This document shows positions 46,985-53,251 of a stretch of 60,966 bases of DNA, in pieces. Position numbers and translations under genes: made by a program. How positions within the stretch are numbered: position 1 is the stretch's first letter; each line of letters opens with the position of its first letter. The stretch is from Candidatus Limnocylindrales bacterium (GTDB lineage Bacteria > Chloroflexota > Limnocylindria > Limnocylindrales > CSP1-4), in NCBI GenBank assembly GCA_035688935.1, contig DASSMI010000046.1, positions 1 through 60,966 on the forward strand, read 5' to 3'. The notes below the pieces were generated by a model. The model was given only the letters and a program-made list of their open reading frames with translations. It did not search any database and had not been told where the DNA came from.

Positions 46985-47196
46985 CGCTCGCGCCGGAAGT
47001 GATCCGGGCGGGCGTGGTCGTCCTCGTGGTCGCGCTGACGGCGGCATTCCTCTTCGGGACCTGGCACGCCGTCGTCGGCGGTCTGGTGAACGGGAACCCG
47101 CGAGCCGGGACCTTCGGCCTCGCGCTCGCGTCGGTCACGGCGGCATTGCTCGCGGGGATCGCCGCGATCGTCCGCCGGCCGAGCCGCGATGGCTGA
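46981..47196 (+). CDS. 71-aa two-TM membrane protein
   Basis: ATG 46981 overlaps the ACAD stop (ATGA). Its 3' end overlaps the next gene by 8 nt. Two hydrophobic helices: VVVLVVALTAAFLFG and FGLALASVTAALLAGIAAIV. Confidence 0.5.
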   Translation: MTLAPEVIRAGVVVLVVALTAAFLFGTWHAVVGGLVNGNPRAGTFGLALASVTAALLAGIAAIVRRPSRDG

Positions 47197-49261
47197 TCCT
47201 GGTCCGAGCACGTCGACCGCCGGCTGGACCGACGCGGAGCTCGGGACGCTCGCCGAGCTCGCCGAGACCTTCGTCCGGGGCGGATCGGTCCGCCGCGCCA
47301 ACCTCGCGGCCGACGCGCTCCGTCGCGCGACGGATCCGGCTCAGCTCGCCCAGCTCAAGCTCGTTCTGCGAATGCTGGAGTCGCGGCCGGCGAACCTGCT
47401 CCTGACCGGACGGCCGACGGCGTTCCGCAACCGGTCGCCGACCGATCGCGAGGCGGTGCTTCTCGCGTGGGCGACGTCGAGATTGCCGCTCCGCCGGTCG
47501 GCATTCCAGGCATACCGGAAGCTGCTGACATTCCTGGCGTACGCAGACCCCGGTCCACCGGGTGCGCCGAACCCGCTCCACGCCGCGATCGGCTACCGCC
47601 CGGACCGCCCGCCGGTGACGCCCGACATCGCGCCGATCCAGCCGCTCGAGGTCCATGCACCGGCGGACGCCGACCGCCCGCTCACGCTCGAGGCCGACGT
47701 CGCGATCGTCGGGTCGGGCGCCGGGGGCGGCGTCATCGCGGCCGACCTCGCCGCCGCCGGTCGATCCGTCGTCATCCTCGAGGCCGGACCGTACGTCGAC
47801 GAGGCGCACCTTCCGACGAACGAGCTCGACGCCTACTCACGGCTGTACCTCAACCACGGGCTGCTGACGACGTGGGATGGCTCGATCACGATGCTCGCCG
47901 GGTCCGCCGTCGGCGGCGGGACGCTCGTGAACTGGATGACCTCGATCCCGGCGCCGCCCGACGTCCGGCGCGACTGGGCACGCGACCACGGCGTGGAGGG
48001 CATCGACGGGGCCGAGTTCGACACGGACGTCGCCTCGATCGAGACCGATCTGAGCGTCGCCGAGTCGGTCGTCATCCCGCCGAAGGACGACGTGATCCTC
48101 CGCGGCGCGGCGGCGCTCGGCTGGGAGGCGGCCCGGACTCGCCGCAACGCCCGCGACTGTGGCGATTGCGGAAGCTGCCCGTTCGGTTGCCCGCGCGGCA
48201 CGAAGCAATCCGGGATCCGGGTCCATCTCGCCCGCGCGTCGGCCGCCGGCGCCCGGATCGTCGATCGGGCGAGGGTCACGCGCGTCGTGGTCGAGGGGAC
48301 CGCCGTCGCCGGCGTCGAGGCGAACGTCCTCGTCGCCGATCCGGCGACCGGCGAACCGGTCCTCGGGCCGGGCGCCGATCCCGCTCATCCGCGGACGCGG
48401 CGCCTCGTCGTCCGCGCGCCGCAGGTCGTGGTCGCGGGCGGTGCGCTGCGGACCCCCGTCGTGCTGCAGGCGTCGGGCCTCGACCATCCAGCCATCGGGC
48501 GTCACCTCCAGCTCCACCCGGTCTCGGTGGTCGCCGGCGTCTTCGACCAGCCGGTCGAGATGTGGCGCGGGACGATGCAGGCGGCGCGATCGCTCCAGTT
48601 CGGCGCGCCGGACGCCGAGCGCAGCGCCTATGCGATCGAGTCGGCGCCCGGCCATCCCGGCCTGATCGCCCTGGCCCTGCCGTGGGAAGGGACCGACGCT
48701 CACGCCGCGCTCCTGGCCAGGATCGGGAGTGTCGCGCCGCTGGTCGCGATCGCCCGTGATGGCGGTGAAGGGCGGGTGCGGCGGACGAAGGCGGGCAACG
48801 CACGCATCGACTACCGGCTCGATGCCCGCGGCATCGCGACGCTCCGCCACGGGCTCGCCTCGATGGCCGAGCTCGCCCGGGCTGCCGGCGCCCGGGCGAT
48901 CGTCGCGGCCGGGACGCCGCCGGAATGGCACGGCCGCGATGGGTTCACGCCGGGTCGCGACGAGCGCGCGTTCGTCGTGTTCCAGGACAGGCTCCGGACC
49001 TTCGACTTCGCTCCAAACCGCGGGGCCGTCTTCTCGGCCCACCAGATGAGCACCGTCCGGCTGGGCGCGGCGGTCGCGGATCACCCGTGCGACCCCGACG
49101 GTCGCGTCCGGACCCGCGCCGGCGACCCGGTCCGAGGGCTGTACGTCGGCGACGGCTCGCTCTTCCCGACCGGGATCGGCGTGAACCCGCAAATCACGAT
49201 CATGGCCCTGGCCCGGCGGATCGCCCGCACGGTCCTCGCCGAGGGACGCGCGTCCGGCTGA
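47189..49261 (+). CDS. GMC-family FAD oxidoreductase (long-chain alcohol oxidase-like, with N-terminal extension)
   Basis: Rossmann motif DVAIVGSGAGGGVIAADLAAAGRSVVILEAG. The C-terminal GMC region includes DGSLFPTGIGVNPQITIMALA. Confidence 0.85.
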   Translation: MADPGPSTSTAGWTDAELGTLAELAETFVRGGSVRRANLAADALRRATDPAQLAQLKLVLRMLESRPANLLLTGRPTAFRNRSPTDREAVLLAWATSRLPLRRSAFQAYRKLLTFLAYADPGPPGAPNPLHAAIGYRPDRPPVTPDIAPIQPLEVHAPADADRPLTLEADVAIVGSGAGGGVIAADLAAAGRSVVILEAGPYVDEAHLPTNELDAYSRLYLNHGLLTTWDGSITMLAGSAVGGGTLVNWMTSIPAPPDVRRDWARDHGVEGIDGAEFDTDVASIETDLSVAESVVIPPKDDVILRGAAALGWEAARTRRNARDCGDCGSCPFGCPRGTKQSGIRVHLARASAAGARIVDRARVTRVVVEGTAVAGVEANVLVADPATGEPVLGPGADPAHPRTRRLVVRAPQVVVAGGALRTPVVLQASGLDHPAIGRHLQLHPVSVVAGVFDQPVEMWRGTMQAARSLQFGAPDAERSAYAIESAPGHPGLIALALPWEGTDAHAALLARIGSVAPLVAIARDGGEGRVRRTKAGNARIDYRLDARGIATLRHGLASMAELARAAGARAIVAAGTPPEWHGRDGFTPGRDERAFVVFQDRLRTFDFAPNRGAVFSAHQMSTVRLGAAVADHPCDPDGRVRTRAGDPVRGLYVGDGSLFPTGIGVNPQITIMALARRIARTVLAEGRASG

Positions 49262-49275
49262 CGCGGGATGCGGCG

Positions 49276-50283
49276 TCAGGCGGTCGCGGGCACGTCCTCG
49301 TGCTCGTGCCGGTGTCGCGGCTCGCTGGCCGGTGCCTCCGTCATCCGGCTCCGGGCCAGGATGATCAAGGCCACGCCGGCGACGATCACGGCGCCCGCGG
49401 CGAGCTGGACCGGTCCCACCGTCTCGTGGAGCAGCAGCCAGCCGAGGAACACCGCGATGACGGGATTGACGAACGCGTACGTCGTGACGAGCGGCAACGG
49501 CGCGTGGCGGATCACCCAGACGAACGCGGTGAAGGCCACGAGGCTGCCCACGACGGTGAGGTAGCCGGTGGCAGCGATGGAGTCCACGGTCACCGACGCC
49601 GGCTGGAACGCCGCGAGCTCGCCGGTCGCGACCGCGGCGATCGCGAGGACGACCGACCCGCTCAGCATCTCGAGGCCCGTCGCGAAGAACGGGTTCGAGG
49701 GCAGCGACGCGCGGTGGGCGGCGAAGGTCGTGCCGGCGGCCCACAGCATCGGGGACAGGACGATCGCGCCCACGCCGACCGGATCGAGGCTGCGATCGAC
49801 GGCGATCCCCTGGGCGACGAGGCCGACGACCCCGACGAGCGCCGTGCCGATCCCGAGGACCGCCAGTCCGGGGAGCCGCTCCGCGAACAGGACCCGGCCG
49901 TAGACGGCGACCCAGACCGGCATCATCGCGATGAGGACGCCGGCGATGCCGGACGGGACGGTCTGCTCGCCCCACGAGACCAGGCCCATCCCGCCGAACA
50001 TCAGGCACGTCCCGACGATCGCGCAGTCGCGCAGCTCGCGGAAGGACGGCCTGGCGACGCGGCCGCGGGTCGCGATCATCACGGCGCCGATCATCACCAG
50101 ACCGGCGATGGCGAAGCGGATCGCGCCCATCACGAACGGCGGCAGCGACTCGACTGCGACGCGGATCGCGAGGTACGTCGATCCCCAGACGACGTAGAGG
50201 ATCAGGATCGCGGTCCAGACCAGGACGGGCGACGCCGTCTTCAGTGGCCGGGCTGGTGAGTTTGGCTTAGTCGGCTGGTCCAA
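49276..50283 (-). CDS. EamA/DMT-family transporter
   Basis: Ten hydrophobic helices with the typical EamA start WGSTYLAIRVAV. The only plausible start upstream of TM1 in this frame is TTG 50283-50281. The rest of track ORF 49276..50751 is shadow sequence. Confidence 0.75.
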   Translation of the reverse strand: MDQPTKPNSPARPLKTASPVLVWTAILILYVVWGSTYLAIRVAVESLPPFVMGAIRFAIAGLVMIGAVMIATRGRVARPSFRELRDCAIVGTCLMFGGMGLVSWGEQTVPSGIAGVLIAMMPVWVAVYGRVLFAERLPGLAVLGIGTALVGVVGLVAQGIAVDRSLDPVGVGAIVLSPMLWAAGTTFAAHRASLPSNPFFATGLEMLSGSVVLAIAAVATGELAAFQPASVTVDSIAATGYLTVVGSLVAFTAFVWVIRHAPLPLVTTYAFVNPVIAVFLGWLLLHETVGPVQLAAGAVIVAGVALIILARSRMTEAPASEPRHRHEHEDVPATA

Positions 50284-50315
50284 GGCGCCAGTGTAGCCCG
50301 CCGGCCGAGAGCGTG

Positions 50316-51122
50316 CTACGCGACGGCCGCACCAAGCGGACGGCAGTGCTTGCACGGTCGGTACCCCGCGCCGAACGCCGCGCTCGCCGACGGGAAGTGC
50401 TTGAGGTGGCGCTCGGTGACCCGCCGGGCATCCGAGCACGTCGGCATGCAGAAGATCCGGGTCGTGTCCGAGCCGAAGTATCGGACGCCGGCTCGGGCCA
50501 ACGCCTCGAGCTCGTCCGGATCGGCGCCCTCGGCGGTCAGGATCGTCCGCTTGTTGTCCGGCCCTCCCAGCGAGTACTGGCCGATCATCCCGTCGCTCCG
50601 GACGACCCGGTGGCACGGCACGATCAATGGCACCGGGTTGTGGCCGAGCGCCGTCCCGACCGCCCGGACCGCCTTCGGCCGGCCGATCTCCGACGCGATC
50701 CAGCCGTAGGGTCGGACCTGCCCGCGCGGGATCTCGAGCGCCTTCCTCCACACCGCCTGCTCGAACTCGGTCGTGCCGCGCAGGTCGAGGTCGATCCGGA
50801 CCTGGCGATCGCCGGCGAGCCGCCGCTCGATCCTCCGCGCCAGCCCGGCCGGGATCGCGTCGCGGCGCCGGGCGCGCCGGCCGGTCCGGGCGTGGAACCG
50901 CGCCTCGAAGGCGTCGTCGTCGCGCTCCCCGGACACCTCAGAGACGCCGCGGCCGTTCCAGACGACCCGCAACGGACCGAGCGGAGAGTCGAGGATCGCG
51001 TAGTCGTCGGCGAGGCCCACCGCCACGAGTGTCGCGTGAGCGAGACCCGGAGGCGCCGCCTCGCGCAGGCCGGCGAGCGCGGCCTCGGCGCCGGGATCGA
51101 TGGAGTCGGTGGTGAGGTTCAT
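50316..51122 (-). CDS. ogt: O6-alkylguanine-DNA alkyltransferase fused to a C-terminal Ada-type Zn(Cys)4 domain
   Basis: MGMT active site LIVPCHRVV. C-terminal FCMPTC-x27-CKHCRP matches the Ada N-terminal C-x3-C-x26-C-x2-C zinc/methyl-acceptor pattern. No AraC HTH is present. ATGA overlap with the sigma gene. Confidence 0.85.
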   Translation of the reverse strand: MNLTTDSIDPGAEAALAGLREAAPPGLAHATLVAVGLADDYAILDSPLGPLRVVWNGRGVSEVSGERDDDAFEARFHARTGRRARRRDAIPAGLARRIERRLAGDRQVRIDLDLRGTTEFEQAVWRKALEIPRGQVRPYGWIASEIGRPKAVRAVGTALGHNPVPLIVPCHRVVRSDGMIGQYSLGGPDNKRTILTAEGADPDELEALARAGVRYFGSDTTRIFCMPTCSDARRVTERHLKHFPSASAAFGAGYRPCKHCRPLGAAVA

Positions 51123-51694
51123 GCAGGGATCTCCTCCCGTTCACGCGCTTCCGCGGCGAGCAGGGCGGCCCGCAGGGCGGCGAGACCGCGGTGGACATGG
51201 GCCTTGACGGTGCCTTCGGGCCGCCCGACGGCCTCCGCGATCTCCGCGTAGGACATGCCGTCGACATGGCGGAGGACGACGGCGGTTCGTTGGGCGGGCG
51301 TCAGGTCGGCGAGGAGGCGCGCCCACATCTCGCGCTCATCGCGCCGGGCGAGGGGATCGGCGGCCGGCTCCGCGCCCGGATCGAACGCCAGCTCGGTGGT
51401 CTGAACCCGCCGGACGCGGGCCCGGTTGCGCCCGCCGTTCAGGAGGATCGTCGTGAGCCAGCCCCGGAGCCGGACCTCGCGGATCCGGGCGGCCGGCCAG
51501 GCGTCCAGCGCCCGATAGGCCCGGACGAACGCGTCCTGCACGAGCTCCTCGGCGTCGCGCCGGTCGCCGCTCGTCCGCAGGGCGATCGTGTAGAGGCGAT
51601 CCTGGTGAGCAAGGAGAAGCGCCTCGAAGCCGCCGTCGAGGTCGGCTGCGAGGCGCTCGGCGAGCTCGGCGTCGTCGGGTCGTCGATCGTCCAT
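51119..51694 (-). CDS. ECF-type RNA polymerase sigma factor
   Basis: Region 2 (FEALLLAHQDRLYTIALRTSGDRRDAEELVQDAFVRAY) and region 4 (VVLRHVDGMSYAEIAEAVGRPEGTVKAHVHRG). I chose ATG 51694 as the start. GTG 51784, 10 nt after the upstream stop, is an alternative. Confidence 0.8.
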   Translation of the reverse strand: MDDRRPDDAELAERLAADLDGGFEALLLAHQDRLYTIALRTSGDRRDAEELVQDAFVRAYRALDAWPAARIREVRLRGWLTTILLNGGRNRARVRRVQTTELAFDPGAEPAADPLARRDEREMWARLLADLTPAQRTAVVLRHVDGMSYAEIAEAVGRPEGTVKAHVHRGLAALRAALLAAEAREREEIPA

Positions 51695-51794
51695 CGTTGG
51701 ATGGAACACGTTACCGGAGCGATGCGTTGCGACCGCTCCGGTGCCGATCCGCGCCGGCGCCGAGAGGGAGTGGGCCGGCGTCACCGGCCCGCGC

Positions 51795-52232
51795 CTACTT
51801 CACCTCGACGGTGACGTCCTTCATCGTCGTCGGGTGGACGGTGCAGTGGTACGTGTACGTGCCCGGCGCCGTGAACACGAGCATCGCGGTCGCGCCGCCG
51901 GCGATCTGGCCGGTGTCGCACGAGCCATCGTCCATCGTCGCGGTGTGGGGGATCGAATCCTGGTTCGTCCACGCGACGATGTCGCCGACCTTGGCCTGGA
52001 CCGTCGGGGTCCCATACGCCGAATTCTTGATGTCGACCGCCGTCGCGGCGGTCGATCCGGCCGGCGCGGTCGCGCAGGCCTTGGCGGTGCCGCCGCCGGC
52101 GGAGGCGGCACCCGACGCTGCGGCCGGTGAGGCGGCGGCCGGCGCGCTCGGGCTGGGGGTCGCGGCGCTGCCGCACGCCGCGAGGAGCGCGACGAGTGCA
52201 GCCGTGGTCAGGGTGATGCCGAGACGGCGCAT
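51795..52232 (-). CDS. type-1 copper (cupredoxin, plastocyanin/amicyanin-like) lipoprotein
   Basis: Start ATG 52232, preceded by GGAGG. Lipobox LVALLAAC. Copper ligands: His in IPHTA, then C-x2-H-x4-M in YHCTVHPTTM. Confidence 0.8.
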   Translation of the reverse strand: MRRLGITLTTAALVALLAACGSAATPSPSAPAAASPAAASGAASAGGGTAKACATAPAGSTAATAVDIKNSAYGTPTVQAKVGDIVAWTNQDSIPHTATMDDGSCDTGQIAGGATAMLVFTAPGTYTYHCTVHPTTMKDVTVEVK

Positions 52233-52339
52233 GGTGAGCCTCCGAGTTGGGCGATCGACGGTCTGGGGCCGCGATCGATCGGGATGATGGTGCTCCCTAC
52301 GTCTGACCCGCGTCGCTGGTTTCGTCCTATCGTGCGAGC

Positions 52340-53251
52340 GTGGACCCTTCACCCCGCAGCGAGTCCGTGGCGACGGCCGCCCCGGGCCGGTCGTCGGCGC
52401 CGCCGCAGACCGGCCCGCCGGCTGGGCTCCGCGACCTGACGCGAGCCGACGTGCGCTGGCTCGCCTGGCACGAAGCCGGCGCGCATGCCCTCACCGGACG
52501 GGAGGTCCGGGACCTGGGCGACGCATGGATGCTCTACGACGAGACCGACCGCGAGCCGTTCTGGAACCGGATCGCCGGGATCGCCTGGCCGTCGGATCCG
52601 CATGCGTTCGACCGCCGCCTGACCGAGATCCTGGCCCTCTTCGCGGGCCTGGACCGGATCCCGCACGTCTGGCCGTCACCCGGGTACGACGAGCCGGCCG
52701 ATCTGACGGAGCGCCTGCTCGCCCACGGGTTCGTCGACCACGGCGGCGGCATGCTCCTGCTGCTCGATCCGGACCGCGGCCCGGGTCCGATCCCGCCGCT
52801 GCCGGCCGGGGTGACGATCGAGCGCGTCCATCGTCGGACTGGGGCCGAGGCCATCGCGGCCGCGGAGGCGATGGCGGCCGTCCTGGTGACGTCGTTCGCC
52901 GTGGAGCCGGAGCGCCGGGTGGCGATCGAGCTCGAGGCCGTCCAGGGCCTCACCACCGACGCGTACCACGCGGTCATCGTCCGCGTGGATGGCCAGCCGG
53001 CCGCCGTCGCTCGCCGGACGACGTTCGCGGGAGCGAGCTACCTCTCGTCGATCGGGACGGACCCGGCGTTCCGTGGCCGCGGCCTCGGCCGGCTCGTGAC
53101 CGCGATCGCGGCCGCGGACGCGCTGGCGGCCGGGAGCCGCTGGACGTACCTCGGGGTGTTCGAGGACAACACCGTCGCGCGCCGTCTCTACGCCGATCTC
53201 GGGTTCGACCCGGTCGGCGTCGTCGGGCCGGACCTGCTCCTCCGGCCCTGA
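52340..53251 (+). CDS. GNAT-family N-acetyltransferase (two-domain)
   Basis: Acetyl-CoA motif A FRGRGLGRLVTAIA in the C-terminal half. GTG start. Confidence 0.7.
   Translation: MDPSPRSESVATAAPGRSSAPPQTGPPAGLRDLTRADVRWLAWHEAGAHALTGREVRDLGDAWMLYDETDREPFWNRIAGIAWPSDPHAFDRRLTEILALFAGLDRIPHVWPSPGYDEPADLTERLLAHGFVDHGGGMLLLLDPDRGPGPIPPLPAGVTIERVHRRTGAEAIAAAEAMAAVLVTSFAVEPERRVAIELEAVQGLTTDAYHAVIVRVDGQPAAVARRTTFAGASYLSSIGTDPAFRGRGLGRLVTAIAAADALAAGSRWTYLGVFEDNTVARRLYADLGFDPVGVVGPDLLLRP

What the first reader, a model, noticed from the sequence alone, without database searches (positions are those of the whole stretch)
49276..52232. ECF sigma factor co-transcribed with an Ogt / Ada-Zn(Cys)4 fusion in place of a recognisable anti-sigma factor, flanked by a cupredoxin lipoprotein and an EamA exporter
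Seen in sequence:
- Four minus-strand genes follow one another with 10-nt, -4-nt (ATGA at 51119-51122) and 32-nt junctions.
- The gene in the usual anti-sigma position has the MGMT active site PCHRV.
- At its C-terminus it has FCMPTC-x27-CKHCRP. This is the Cys4 zinc site of the Ada N-terminal domain.
- It has no AraC-type HTH and no ZAS (HxxxCxxC) motif.

Established knowledge:
- In E. coli Ada, methyl transfer from DNA phosphotriesters to a Cys of this zinc site is the switch that turns on the adaptive response.

Inference:
- The Ada-type methyl-sensor domain may be wired to an ECF sigma factor instead of an HTH. That would be an alkylation-responsive sigma/anti-sigma pair.
- The linked cupredoxin and exporter genes would then be part of the regulon, or indicate a metal or redox input.
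Basis: partly seen in the sequence, partly recalled or inferred. Interest (0 to 1): 0.6.

Follow-up and report, generated by a model that had tools for sequence, protein, structure and literature searches.

The report
Sigma factor paired with alkylation-repair sensor
A soil Chloroflexota bacterium couples a small alternative sigma factor to a single-use DNA-methyl-damage repair protein and an exporter, probably forming an untested alkylation-damage switch; the gene pairing itself is already catalogued.

Summary
The sequence features are real. An ECF sigma gene overlaps by ATGA a 268-aa protein with a complete MGMT domain (PCHRV) and a C-terminal Ada-type Zn(Cys)4 domain. It has no AraC HTH and no ZAS motif.

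One correction: the sigma gene most likely starts at ATG 51694, not GTG 51784. The 100-nt gap to the cupredoxin gene then holds a conserved ECF-type promoter, (T/C)GCAAC-N15-CGTGTT, 10 nt before the start codon (leaderless).

- **Pairing:** sigma and MGMT genes are adjacent in 74 of 75 fetched loci from at least six phyla, and in 45 of 47 cases when searching from the sigma side.
- **EamA exporter:** a conserved third operon gene in this lineage.
- **Cupredoxin:** only a loose syntenic neighbour.
- **Regulon:** the same promoter sits before a plain ogt paralog in this genome, and before EamA and SDR genes in relatives and actinomycetes.
- **Anti-sigma link:** related MGMT-Ada proteins carry a true ZAS anti-sigma domain, although they pair with a different sigma clade.

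The most likely reading is an alkylation-sensing anti-sigma-like partner. This is inferred, not shown. The sigma-MGMT association is already catalogued as ECF122 with unknown mechanism, and this scan has found the same module repeatedly on other DNA.

The parts
51795..52232 (-). Cupredoxin (amicyanin/plastocyanin-like) lipoprotein. It is a syntenic neighbour, probably not part of the sigma transcription unit.
   Evidence: Pfam Copper-bind 1.8e-07; NCBIfam amicyanin 2.8e-14, below cut-off. The lipobox LAAC is visible in the translation. It is adjacent to the sigma gene only in the window, L008 and L036. In about 10 other relatives it lies about 1 kb further upstream, and in L043 an opposite-strand gene intervenes.
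51772..51790 (-). GC-rich hairpin directly after the cupredoxin stop codon. It is a possible terminator without a U-tract; the evidence is weak.
   Evidence: strand folding gives an 8-bp perfect stem, but z = -1.39 against shuffles. The consensus terminator scan found nothing here.
51705..51731 (-). Predicted ECF-type autoregulatory promoter: -35 CGCAAC (51731-51726), 15-nt spacer, -10 CGTGTT (51710-51705). The start codon follows 10 nt later, so the mRNA would be leaderless.
   Evidence: It is the only match in the 61-kb window, with 0.01 expected. The motif lies upstream of the sigma gene in 57 of 99 related loci, against 0.013 expected per 240-nt stretch. A start codon lies 8-11 nt after the -10 element in 32 of those 57.
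51119..51694 (-). ECF sigma factor of 191 aa (sigma-2 and sigma-4 domains only), with the corrected start ATG 51694. The longest ORF starts at GTG 51784.
   Evidence: Pfam Sigma70_r2 2e-11 and Sigma70_r4_2 6.3e-18. It scores 233.8 bits against the family HMM, against 128.7 for the next ECF in this genome. It sits in a clade of 87 MGMT-linked sigma factors with 100/96 support.
50316..51122 (-). MGMT (O6-alkylguanine alkyltransferase) plus a C-terminal Ada-type Zn(Cys)4 domain, 268 aa. It has a 40-residue N-terminal extension with two helices and is the candidate anti-sigma-like sensor. Its start overlaps the sigma stop (ATGA).
   Evidence: Pfam PF01035 4.7e-31 and PF02805 3e-12. Invariant residues are Y139, R153, N162, C170, H171, R172, E198, C225, C229, C257 and C260. 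The AF2 model has pLDDT 95.3 and pTM 0.88. Foldseek matches M. tuberculosis OGT and E. coli Ada-C at TM 0.77, and N-Ada entries 1u8b and 1wpk. hhalign of the N-terminus against ZAS-type relatives gives 78.6%.
49276..50283 (-). EamA/DMT-family exporter (YedA-like), 335 aa, TTG start 32 nt after the fusion stop. It is the third gene of the operon in this lineage.
   Evidence: Pfam EamA 1e-32 with two repeats; NCBIfam YedA 6.1e-63, below cut-off. It lies directly downstream on the same strand in 6 of 6 same-family loci and in 21 of 24 Limnocylindrales-type loci. EamA paralogs elsewhere carry the same promoter in G277 and in Spirillospora.

Best explanation
This is a three-gene operon, sigma / MGMT-Ada(Zn) / EamA, with its own leaderless ECF-type promoter. 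It probably works as an Ada-independent response to alkylation.

The MGMT-Ada protein would act as a soluble, anti-sigma-like partner of the sigma factor. It would probably bind through its 40-residue N-terminal extension, which resembles the tail of an anti-sigma domain.

Proposed sequence of events:
1. The protein repairs DNA by irreversibly taking an alkyl group onto Cys170 (from O6-alkylguanine or O4-alkylthymine) and/or onto Cys225 of the zinc site (from methyl-phosphotriesters).
2. This changes or destabilises the protein, and the sigma factor is released.
3. The free sigma factor transcribes its own operon from (T/C)GCAAC-N15-CGTGTT, which replaces the spent sensor and makes the exporter.
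4. It also transcribes a plain ogt gene and possibly an AlkA-like glycosylase gene.

Shown here: the gene anatomy, conservation of the pairing, intact catalytic and zinc residues, the promoter motif, and where that motif recurs.

Inferred: sigma binding, release on alkylation, and the substrate of the exporter.
For: Pairing:
- A sigma gene lies directly upstream on the same strand in 29 of 29 Chloroflexota loci.
- The same holds in 74 of 75 genome-contig loci that have upstream DNA. These come from Chloroflexota, Actinomycetota, Acidobacteriota, Dormibacterota, Eremiobacterota and Entotheonella.
- Searching from the sigma side, 45 of 47 sigma hits of at least 105 bits have the MGMT gene next door.
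- The 4-nt overlap is conserved.

Sigma factor:
- The 87 linked sigma factors form one clade with 100/96 support, apart from 20 other ECF sigma factors of this genome.

Sensor protein:
- PCHR is present in 94 of 98 family members and the Ada Cys4 pattern in 92 of 98.
- The catalytic residues and zinc ligands are invariant.
- The fold is confident and matches OGT/Ada-C and N-Ada.
- The extension is absent from the genome's two plain MGMT paralogs.
- A ZAS (zf-HC2) anti-sigma domain is fused to homologous MGMT-Ada modules in 5 of 43 aligned relatives, in 14 proteins in all, and in loci L096 and L113.
- hhalign places the window-type N-terminus on the segment just after the CxxC motif (78.6%, E 1.7e-5).

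Promoter and regulon:
- The promoter motif is strongly enriched upstream of the sigma gene (57 of 99 loci).
- Genome-wide in G000, the motif with an exact -10 hexamer CGTGTT occurs only before the sigma gene and 7-10 nt before the start of a plain ogt gene. The wider pattern (BGTGTT) adds one more site, on C58, with no plausible gene.
- A one-mismatch copy precedes an AlkA-like glycosylase gene.
- Other lineages carry alkA, a second MGMT gene or a PF09859 oxygenase gene in the operon.
Against: - There is no experimental or structural evidence of sigma binding, and no multimer prediction could be run.
- The window protein has no recognisable anti-sigma domain by Pfam. The hhalign match of its N-terminus is short and only moderate.
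- In the model the two N-terminal helices have high pLDDT, so they may simply pack on the MGMT domain.
- The sigma factors that pair with ZAS-bearing MGMT-Ada proteins (L096, L113) belong to a different ECF clade. The ZAS relatives therefore show what the module can do, not what this protein does.
- The review that lists ECF122 treats it as a group without an anti-sigma factor and with unknown mechanism (PMC8999054).
- The AlkA-like promoter copy has a mismatch and was not found upstream of four orthologues.
- About 42% of related loci lack a recognisable motif under my pattern.
Confidence: 0.55

Rival explanations
1. The MGMT-Ada protein is only a repair enzyme under sigma control. It is a regulon member co-translated with its regulator, not the regulator. 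Sigma activity would be set elsewhere, by transcription of the operon or by an unlinked factor.
For: No anti-sigma domain is detected by Pfam in the window protein. ECF122 is listed among groups without a cognate anti-sigma factor (PMC8999054). The genome's plain ogt gene carries the same promoter, so MGMT genes are clearly targets of this sigma factor.
Against: A mere target gene would not be expected to stay translationally coupled to the sigma gene in at least six phyla and in both search directions. The family also keeps an N-terminal extension that plain MGMTs lack. Homologous modules are fused to real ZAS anti-sigma domains. A positively autoregulated sigma factor with no inhibitor would have no off state.
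Confidence: 0.22
2. The logic is reversed: the protein is a co-activator. The alkylated MGMT-Ada protein would bind the sigma factor, RNA polymerase or promoter DNA and stimulate transcription, as methylated E. coli Ada does once its zinc-site cysteine is neutralised.
For: The Ada-type Zn(Cys)4 site is intact, including the equivalent of the methyl-accepting Cys38. In E. coli Ada, methylation of this site is an activating switch (established knowledge; PDB 1u8b and 1wpk are methylated N-Ada).
Against: There is no sequence-specific DNA-binding module: the AraC HTH is absent. Some partners of the same sigma clade lack the Ada-Zn domain altogether (G073, G082, G158, L112, L114), so it cannot be essential for the coupling. 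ZAS-bearing relatives point to inhibitory binding.
Confidence: 0.13
3. The protein is a thiol, redox or metal sensor rather than an alkylation sensor. The Zn(Cys)4 site would be oxidised or lose its metal, as in RsrA-type ZAS factors, and the cupredoxin neighbour would hint at a copper or redox input.
For: Zn-Cys4 sites are redox-labile in ZAS anti-sigma factors (established knowledge). A cupredoxin lipoprotein gene lies next to the sigma gene in the window. EamA exporters and SDR enzymes in the regulon are not specific to DNA repair.
Against: The full MGMT catalytic set is invariant across the family. Promoter-linked or operon-linked genes include ogt, alkA and another MGMT gene. The cupredoxin is not a conserved neighbour and lies outside the promoter unit.
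Confidence: 0.07

Closest known systems
ECF122 group of the ECF sigma classification (Casas-Pastor et al. 2021, PMC7826278, as summarised in PMC8999054; example WP_057211282.1 from Cellulomonas sp. Root930)
   Same: It is an ECF sigma factor whose conserved genomic neighbour is a 6-O-methylguanine DNA methyltransferase. No classical anti-sigma factor is known, and the mechanism is listed as unknown. The window sigma factor falls in one well-supported clade with actinobacterial MGMT-linked sigma factors.
   Different: Membership could not be tested with the group's own HMM, and the named example could not be fetched. The text I could read does not mention the Ada-Zn domain, the anti-sigma-like N-terminus, the promoter, or the EamA/ogt regulon. 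The supplement that describes the group is not held.
E. coli Ada and the adaptive response (N-Ada Zn(Cys)4 + AraC-type HTH + C-Ada MGMT; PDB 1adn, 1u8b, 1wpk, 1sfe)
   Same: Both suicide methyl-acceptor modules sit in one protein. The profile matches 1sfe at 4.7e-34 and 1adn at 1.9e-10. The predicted regulon contains ogt and possibly alkA genes, and the system is autoregulated.
   Different: The domain order is reversed, with MGMT first and the zinc domain last. There is no AraC HTH. The output would go through a separate ECF sigma factor instead of direct DNA binding. The operon carries an EamA exporter.
Class I / ZAS anti-sigma factors (RsrA, RslA, ChrR; Pfam zf-HC2 PF13490)
   Same: The gene sits immediately downstream of the ECF sigma gene and is translationally coupled to it. 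Relatives of the protein carry a true HxxxCxxC anti-sigma domain in front of the same MGMT-Ada module. The window N-terminus aligns with the segment after the zinc motif.
   Different: The window protein lacks the HxxxCxxC motif and the first helices of the domain; only two short helices remain. The sensing part would be an irreversible alkyl acceptor rather than a redox-sensitive zinc site or a membrane or periplasmic domain.
M. tuberculosis OGT (4bhb, 4wx9) and other plain Ogt proteins
   Same: It has the two-domain MGMT fold at TM 0.77 and 35-37% identity, with the same catalytic residues.
   Different: It has an extra 40-residue N-terminus and a 60-residue C-terminal zinc domain, and it is obligatorily paired with a sigma gene. 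The genome keeps two plain Ogt paralogs besides it.

Membership tests
ECF (group IV) sigma-70 family | Only sigma-2 and sigma-4 domains, about 190 aa, no region 1.1 or region 3 | tested here: met
   Pfam Sigma70_r2 and Sigma70_r4_2 only; NCBIfam sigma70-ECF 70.9 bits, above the 42.9 cut-off. The protein is 191 aa from ATG 51694.
ECF122 | Conserved neighbouring 6-O-methylguanine DNA methyltransferase gene | tested here: met
   Adjacency holds in 29 of 29 and in 74 of 75 loci, and in 45 of 47 cases from the sigma side.
ECF122 | Assignment by the group-specific HMM or phylogeny of the ECF classification | not testable with these tools
   ECF Hub HMMs are not on hand, the paper's supplement is not held, and the named example could not be fetched. 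Indirect support only: the window sigma factor shares a clade (100/96) with actinobacterial MGMT-linked sigma factors.
MGMT / Ogt (PF01035) | PCHR active-site cysteine plus the Arg finger, Tyr, Asn hinge and Glu of the catalytic network | tested here: met
   C170, H171, R172, R153, Y139, N162 and E198 are invariant in 91 sequences. Pfam gives 106.9 bits against a cut-off of 27.
MGMT / Ogt (PF01035) | Two-domain alkyltransferase fold | tested here: met
   The AF2 model has pLDDT 95.3. Foldseek matches 4wx9 and 1sfe at TMt 0.76-0.77 and E about 1e-12.
MGMT / Ogt (PF01035) | Alkyl-transfer activity | not testable with these tools
   This needs a biochemical assay.
Ada N-terminal zinc domain (PF02805) | Four Cys zinc ligands in the CxxxC...CxxC pattern, including the methyl-acceptor equivalent of Cys38 | tested here: met
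   C225, C229, C257 and C260 are invariant. Pfam gives 46.8 bits against a cut-off of 23. The profile matches 1adn residues 23-77 at 1.9e-10.
Ada / AdaA transcriptional regulators | AraC-type helix-turn-helix following the zinc domain | tested here: not met
   There is no HTH_18 or HTH_AraC hit, and the protein ends 8 residues after the last Cys. The NCBIfam Ada equivalog scores 117.7 bits against a cut-off of 345.
Class I anti-sigma domain / ZAS (PF13490) | HxxxCxxC zinc motif and a four-helix anti-sigma domain | tested here: not met
   There is no zf-HC2 hit and no such motif in the window protein. Only helices 10-18 and 27-34 precede the MGMT domain.
Class I anti-sigma domain / ZAS (PF13490) | Homology of the N-terminal extension to an anti-sigma domain | tested here: inconclusive
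   hhalign of N-terminal segments only gives 78.6% probability and E 1.7e-5 over 32 columns, aligned to the part after the CxxC motif of ZAS-bearing relatives.
Class I anti-sigma domain / ZAS (PF13490) | Binding and inhibition of the cognate sigma factor | not testable with these tools
   No multimer prediction is available. A single-chain work-around failed at the alignment step.
EamA / DMT transporters (PF00892) | Two EamA repeats (ten-TM DMT architecture) | tested here: met
   Pfam EamA 113.7 bits with two stretches. The NCBIfam YedA equivalog scores 212.8 bits, below its cut-off of 270, so it is YedA-like and not assigned as YedA.

The most novel reading that the evidence does not exclude
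A suicide alkyl-acceptor protein is itself the anti-sigma factor. Its regulon would reach beyond DNA repair to EamA exporters and SDR enzymes. The system would then sense and dispose of environmental alkylating electrophiles, or of the S-alkyl-cysteine left by spent acceptors, and would not only mend DNA.
Probability: 0.4. Interest if true: 0.75.

Novelty: new member of a known kind. Interest (0 to 1): 0.5.

Why it matters
If the model holds, this would be a second, widespread way to build an adaptive response to alkylation. It is found in Chloroflexota, Actinomycetota, Acidobacteriota and other soil phyla. It uses the chemistry of Ada but sends the signal through a sigma/anti-sigma pair instead of an AraC-type activator.

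It would also be an anti-sigma factor inactivated by an irreversible covalent repair event, which no characterised anti-sigma factor does.

The work here gives concrete handles for testing:
- a defined promoter, (T/C)GCAAC-N15-CGTGTT, with a leaderless transcript;
- a small predicted regulon: ogt, an EamA exporter, SDR, and possibly alkA;
- cultured carriers: Nonomuraea, Actinomadura, Streptosporangium carneum and Spirillospora sp. NBC_00431.

For this window alone the finding is one more instance of a catalogued but unstudied module.

Tried and rejected
1. **Sigma start at GTG 51784 (the 10-nt junction).** Rejected in favour of ATG 51694, because the conserved promoter lies inside the longer ORF.
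2. **Cupredoxin as an operon member.** Rejected on synteny.
3. **Single-chain stand-in for a sigma/partner complex.** In L016 the two genes are in frame, so I translated across the sigma stop codon (TAA read as Q) to get one chain. In alignment A4, MAFFT stacked the sigma rows onto the MGMT columns, and 0 of 71 sigma rows were placed correctly. I did not fold it.
4. **The look-up of sequencing runs.** I wanted metatranscriptome reads to check the transcription start and co-transcription.
5. **Description of ECF122.** The supplement of Casas-Pastor et al. is not held, and ECF Hub HMMs are not available.
6. **Literature search.** Searches for an alkylation-sensing anti-sigma factor or for Ada_Zn_binding architectures found nothing relevant.
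7. **Consensus promoter and terminator scan.** It found nothing useful in 49000-52500. The hairpin after the cupredoxin stop is not significant against shuffles.
8. **AlkA-like promoter copy.** It was not found upstream of orthologues in four relatives, so I keep it only as a candidate.
9. **Exact motif match in G009.** It precedes an unrelated ECF sigma gene with a membrane anti-sigma gene downstream, so it does not belong to this family.
10. **Sigma-MGMT single-ORF fusions in the representative library (P0248, P0184, P0165).** Noted, but not used as evidence. With an ATGA overlap, a one-base assembly error would create such fusions.


Full report
**Organism and anatomy**

The window comes from a 72%-complete MAG of an uncultivated Chloroflexota bacterium; its nearest named relatives are "Candidatus Limnocylindrales". 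GC content is about 73%.

Four genes lie in a row on the minus strand:
- a cupredoxin lipoprotein, 51795-52232 (Copper-bind 1.8e-07; amicyanin-like 2.8e-14, below cut-off);
- an ECF sigma factor (Sigma70_r2 and Sigma70_r4_2);
- a 268-aa protein, 50316-51122, with an MGMT domain (PF01035, 4.7e-31, residues 119-199) and an Ada zinc domain (PF02805, 3e-12, residues 213-262);
- an EamA-family transporter, 49276-50283 (TTG start; EamA 1e-32; YedA-like, below cut-off).

The sigma stop and the MGMT-Ada start overlap as ATGA at 51119-51122. PCHRV and FCMPTC-x27-CKHCRP are present as described. Pfam finds no AraC-type HTH and no zf-HC2. The genome has two further plain MGMT genes that are not next to any sigma gene, and no other Ada zinc domain.

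**Correction to the observation**

The 10-nt junction between the cupredoxin and sigma genes depends on the longest sigma ORF, which starts at GTG 51784. Three results argue against that start:
- Homologue alignments start about residue 51 of that ORF.
- Inside the extension lies CGCAAC-N15-CGTGTT (51731-51705), followed 10 nt later by ATG 51694.
- The motif (T/C)GCAAC-N15-(C/G/T)GTGTT occurs upstream of the sigma gene in 57 of 99 related loci, against 0.013 expected per 240-nt stretch. In 32 of those 57 an in-frame start codon lies 8-11 nt after it.

This is the geometry of an ECF-type promoter that makes a leaderless mRNA. The sigma factor is therefore most likely 191 aa. The real gap to the cupredoxin gene is 100 nt, and it holds the sigma factor's own promoter.

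A GC-rich hairpin follows the cupredoxin stop, but it is not significant against shuffles.

**Is the pairing conserved?**

- In a sample of 301 Chloroflexota genomes, the 29 best loci with a full-length MGMT-Ada homologue, from about 50 genomes that have one, all carry a sigma homologue directly upstream on the same strand. Mostly they share the same 4-nt overlap.
- A scan of one genome per species returned 80 loci. Of the 75 with upstream DNA, 74 have the sigma gene in place; the exception is a Methylomirabilis contig.
- Carriers come from Chloroflexota, Actinomycetota (Acidimicrobiia, Nonomuraea, Actinomadura, Streptosporangium, Spirillospora, Pseudonocardiales), Acidobacteriota, Dormibacterota, Eremiobacterota and Entotheonella.
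- The reverse test also holds. Of 47 sigma hits of at least 105 bits in the Chloroflexota sample, 45 have the MGMT gene next door.
- The window sigma factor scores 233.8 bits against the family HMM, while the best of about 30 other ECF sigma factors in this genome scores 128.7.
- In a maximum-likelihood tree, 87 of 89 linked sigma factors form one clade with 100/96 support, apart from 20 other ECF sigma factors of the genome.

**The partner protein**

- Across 91 family members the MGMT catalytic set (Y139, R153, N162, C170, H171, R172, E198) and the four zinc cysteines (C225, C229, C257, C260) are invariant.
- PCHR is present in 94 of 98 loci and the Cys4 pattern in 92 of 98.
- A few partners of the same sigma clade lack the zinc domain.
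- The AF2 model is very confident (pLDDT 95.3, pTM 0.88). Two short N-terminal helices (10-18 and 27-34) precede a two-domain MGMT fold and a small zinc domain.
- Foldseek finds M. tuberculosis OGT and E. coli Ada-C (TM 0.77), and methylated N-Ada entries 1u8b and 1wpk. A family profile matches 1sfe at 4.7e-34 and 1adn at 1.9e-10.
- Both acceptor sites therefore look functional. Activity itself was not tested.

**Is it an anti-sigma factor?**

The window protein has no recognisable anti-sigma domain. It does carry about 40 N-terminal residues that the plain Ogt paralogs lack, with the family motif L..L...AP..L...VL..GLAD.Y.

Evidence linking it to anti-sigma domains:
- Among diverse relatives, 5 of 43 aligned proteins match zf-HC2. 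In all, 14 proteins, including loci L096 and L113, carry a canonical HxxxCxxC anti-sigma domain in front of the same MGMT-Ada module, again next to an ECF sigma gene.
- A profile comparison of the N-terminal segments alone aligns the window-type extension with the stretch just after the CxxC motif (78.6%, E 1.7e-5, 32 columns).

Two cautions apply:
- The match is short.
- The sigma factors of the two ZAS-type loci belong to a different ECF clade. The ZAS relatives show that this module is used as the sensory part of anti-sigma factors. They do not show that the window protein descends from the partner of the same sigma factor.

**Regulon**

In G000, the motif with an exact -10 hexamer CGTGTT occurs in only two places:
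- before the sigma gene;
- on contig C1, 7 and 10 nt before the two ATG codons of a plain ogt gene.

The wider pattern (BGTGTT) gives one further match, on C58, with no plausible gene. In 61 genomes of the class, the pattern beginning TGCAAC has 6 matches against 3 for the reversed control. Four of the six are sigma loci and one is this ogt gene.

It returned eight genes:
- the sigma gene;
- the ogt gene;
- a 209-aa HhH-GPD glycosylase gene on C150, whose closest solved relatives are 3-methyladenine glycosylases (2yg8, 6.3e-23);
- five others that show no link to repair.

That last promoter copy was not seen upstream of four orthologues, so it stays a candidate.

In a same-family genome (G277) the motif lies 9 nt before an ogt-like gene and 10 nt before a second EamA gene.

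In five actinomycete isolate genomes the exact motif has 9 matches and no control matches:
- 3 before the sigma gene;
- 1 before an EamA transporter gene (Spirillospora);
- 4 before orthologous SDR oxidoreductase genes;
- 1 unclear.

In other Chloroflexota lineages the gene after the partner is alkA (4 of 41), another MGMT gene (2) or a PF09859 oxygenase gene (1).

**EamA and the cupredoxin**

An EamA gene follows the partner gene on the same strand in 6 of 6 same-family loci and in 21 of 24 Limnocylindrales-type loci with enough DNA. It is not found there in other lineages. It is therefore a lineage-specific third operon gene, and EamA genes recur under the same promoter elsewhere. Its substrate is unknown. 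Export of an alkylating agent, or of S-alkyl-cysteine from spent acceptors, is speculation.

The cupredoxin is adjacent only in the window, L008 and L036. In about ten relatives it lies about 1 kb further upstream, and in L043 an opposite-strand methyltransferase-like gene sits between it and the sigma gene. It is a loose syntenic neighbour, and nothing supports a metal or redox input.

**What is known**

- A review of non-canonical ECF sigma factors lists 6-O-methylguanine DNA methyltransferases as the conserved neighbours of group ECF122 and files the group under "unknown mechanism" (PMC8999054, citing PMC7826278).
- I found no paper that proposes or tests an alkylation-sensing anti-sigma factor.
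- This scan has already noted and followed up the same module on many other genomes, with the same reading. Here I independently re-tested the pairing, the anti-sigma remnant, the promoter and the extra promoter targets.

**Verdict**

The EamA gene belongs to it and the cupredoxin does not. It is a new member of a catalogued but unstudied kind.

Binding, release on alkylation and induction all remain to be shown.

Noticed in passing
L096:3333-4229 and L113:3384-4274 (and their upstream sigma genes): MGMT-Ada proteins with a full ZAS (HxxxCxxC) anti-sigma domain pair with ECF sigma factors of a different clade from the 87 other MGMT-linked sigma factors. The MGMT-Ada module seems to have been joined to two separate sigma lineages.
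   Followed up: partly
L157:1602-2405, L158:679-1470, L159:668-1462, L160:636-1463: In four Streptosporangiales genomes the exact promoter motif TGCAAC-N15-GGTGTT precedes an SDR oxidoreductase gene; three of the four are clear orthologues. This suggests a detoxification arm of the regulon.
   Followed up: partly
L156:1551-2528 (Spirillospora sp. NBC_00431) and L134 (G277:C4): EamA-family transporter genes away from the sigma locus carry the same promoter. This matches the in-operon EamA gene of the window.
   Followed up: partly
G000:C150:4217-4843 (L162:518-1144): An AlkA/Mag-type 3-methyladenine glycosylase gene is preceded by GCAAC-N15-GGGGTT and a GTG start 9 nt later. This is a one-mismatch copy of the sigma promoter, and it was not seen upstream of four orthologues.
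   Followed up: yes
P0248, P0184, P0165 (representative library): Single ORFs combine ECF sigma regions with the MGMT domain. They may be natural sigma-partner fusions or one-base assembly errors across the ATGA overlap.
   Followed up: partly
L043:1746-2888 (minus strand): In several relatives a SAM-methyltransferase-like gene lies on the opposite strand between the cupredoxin and sigma genes. The window has no such gene there.
   Followed up: no
L120 (G009:C2:370006-373032): An unrelated ECF sigma gene, followed by a membrane anti-sigma-like gene, carries an exact TGCAAC-N15-CGTGTT upstream. This could be chance or a related promoter specificity.
   Followed up: partly
window 52340-53251 (+) and 47189-49261 (+): The flanking genes are a GNAT acetyltransferase gene, divergent from the cupredoxin gene, and a GMC oxidoreductase gene, convergent with the EamA gene. 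They mark the ends of the minus-strand block.
   Followed up: no
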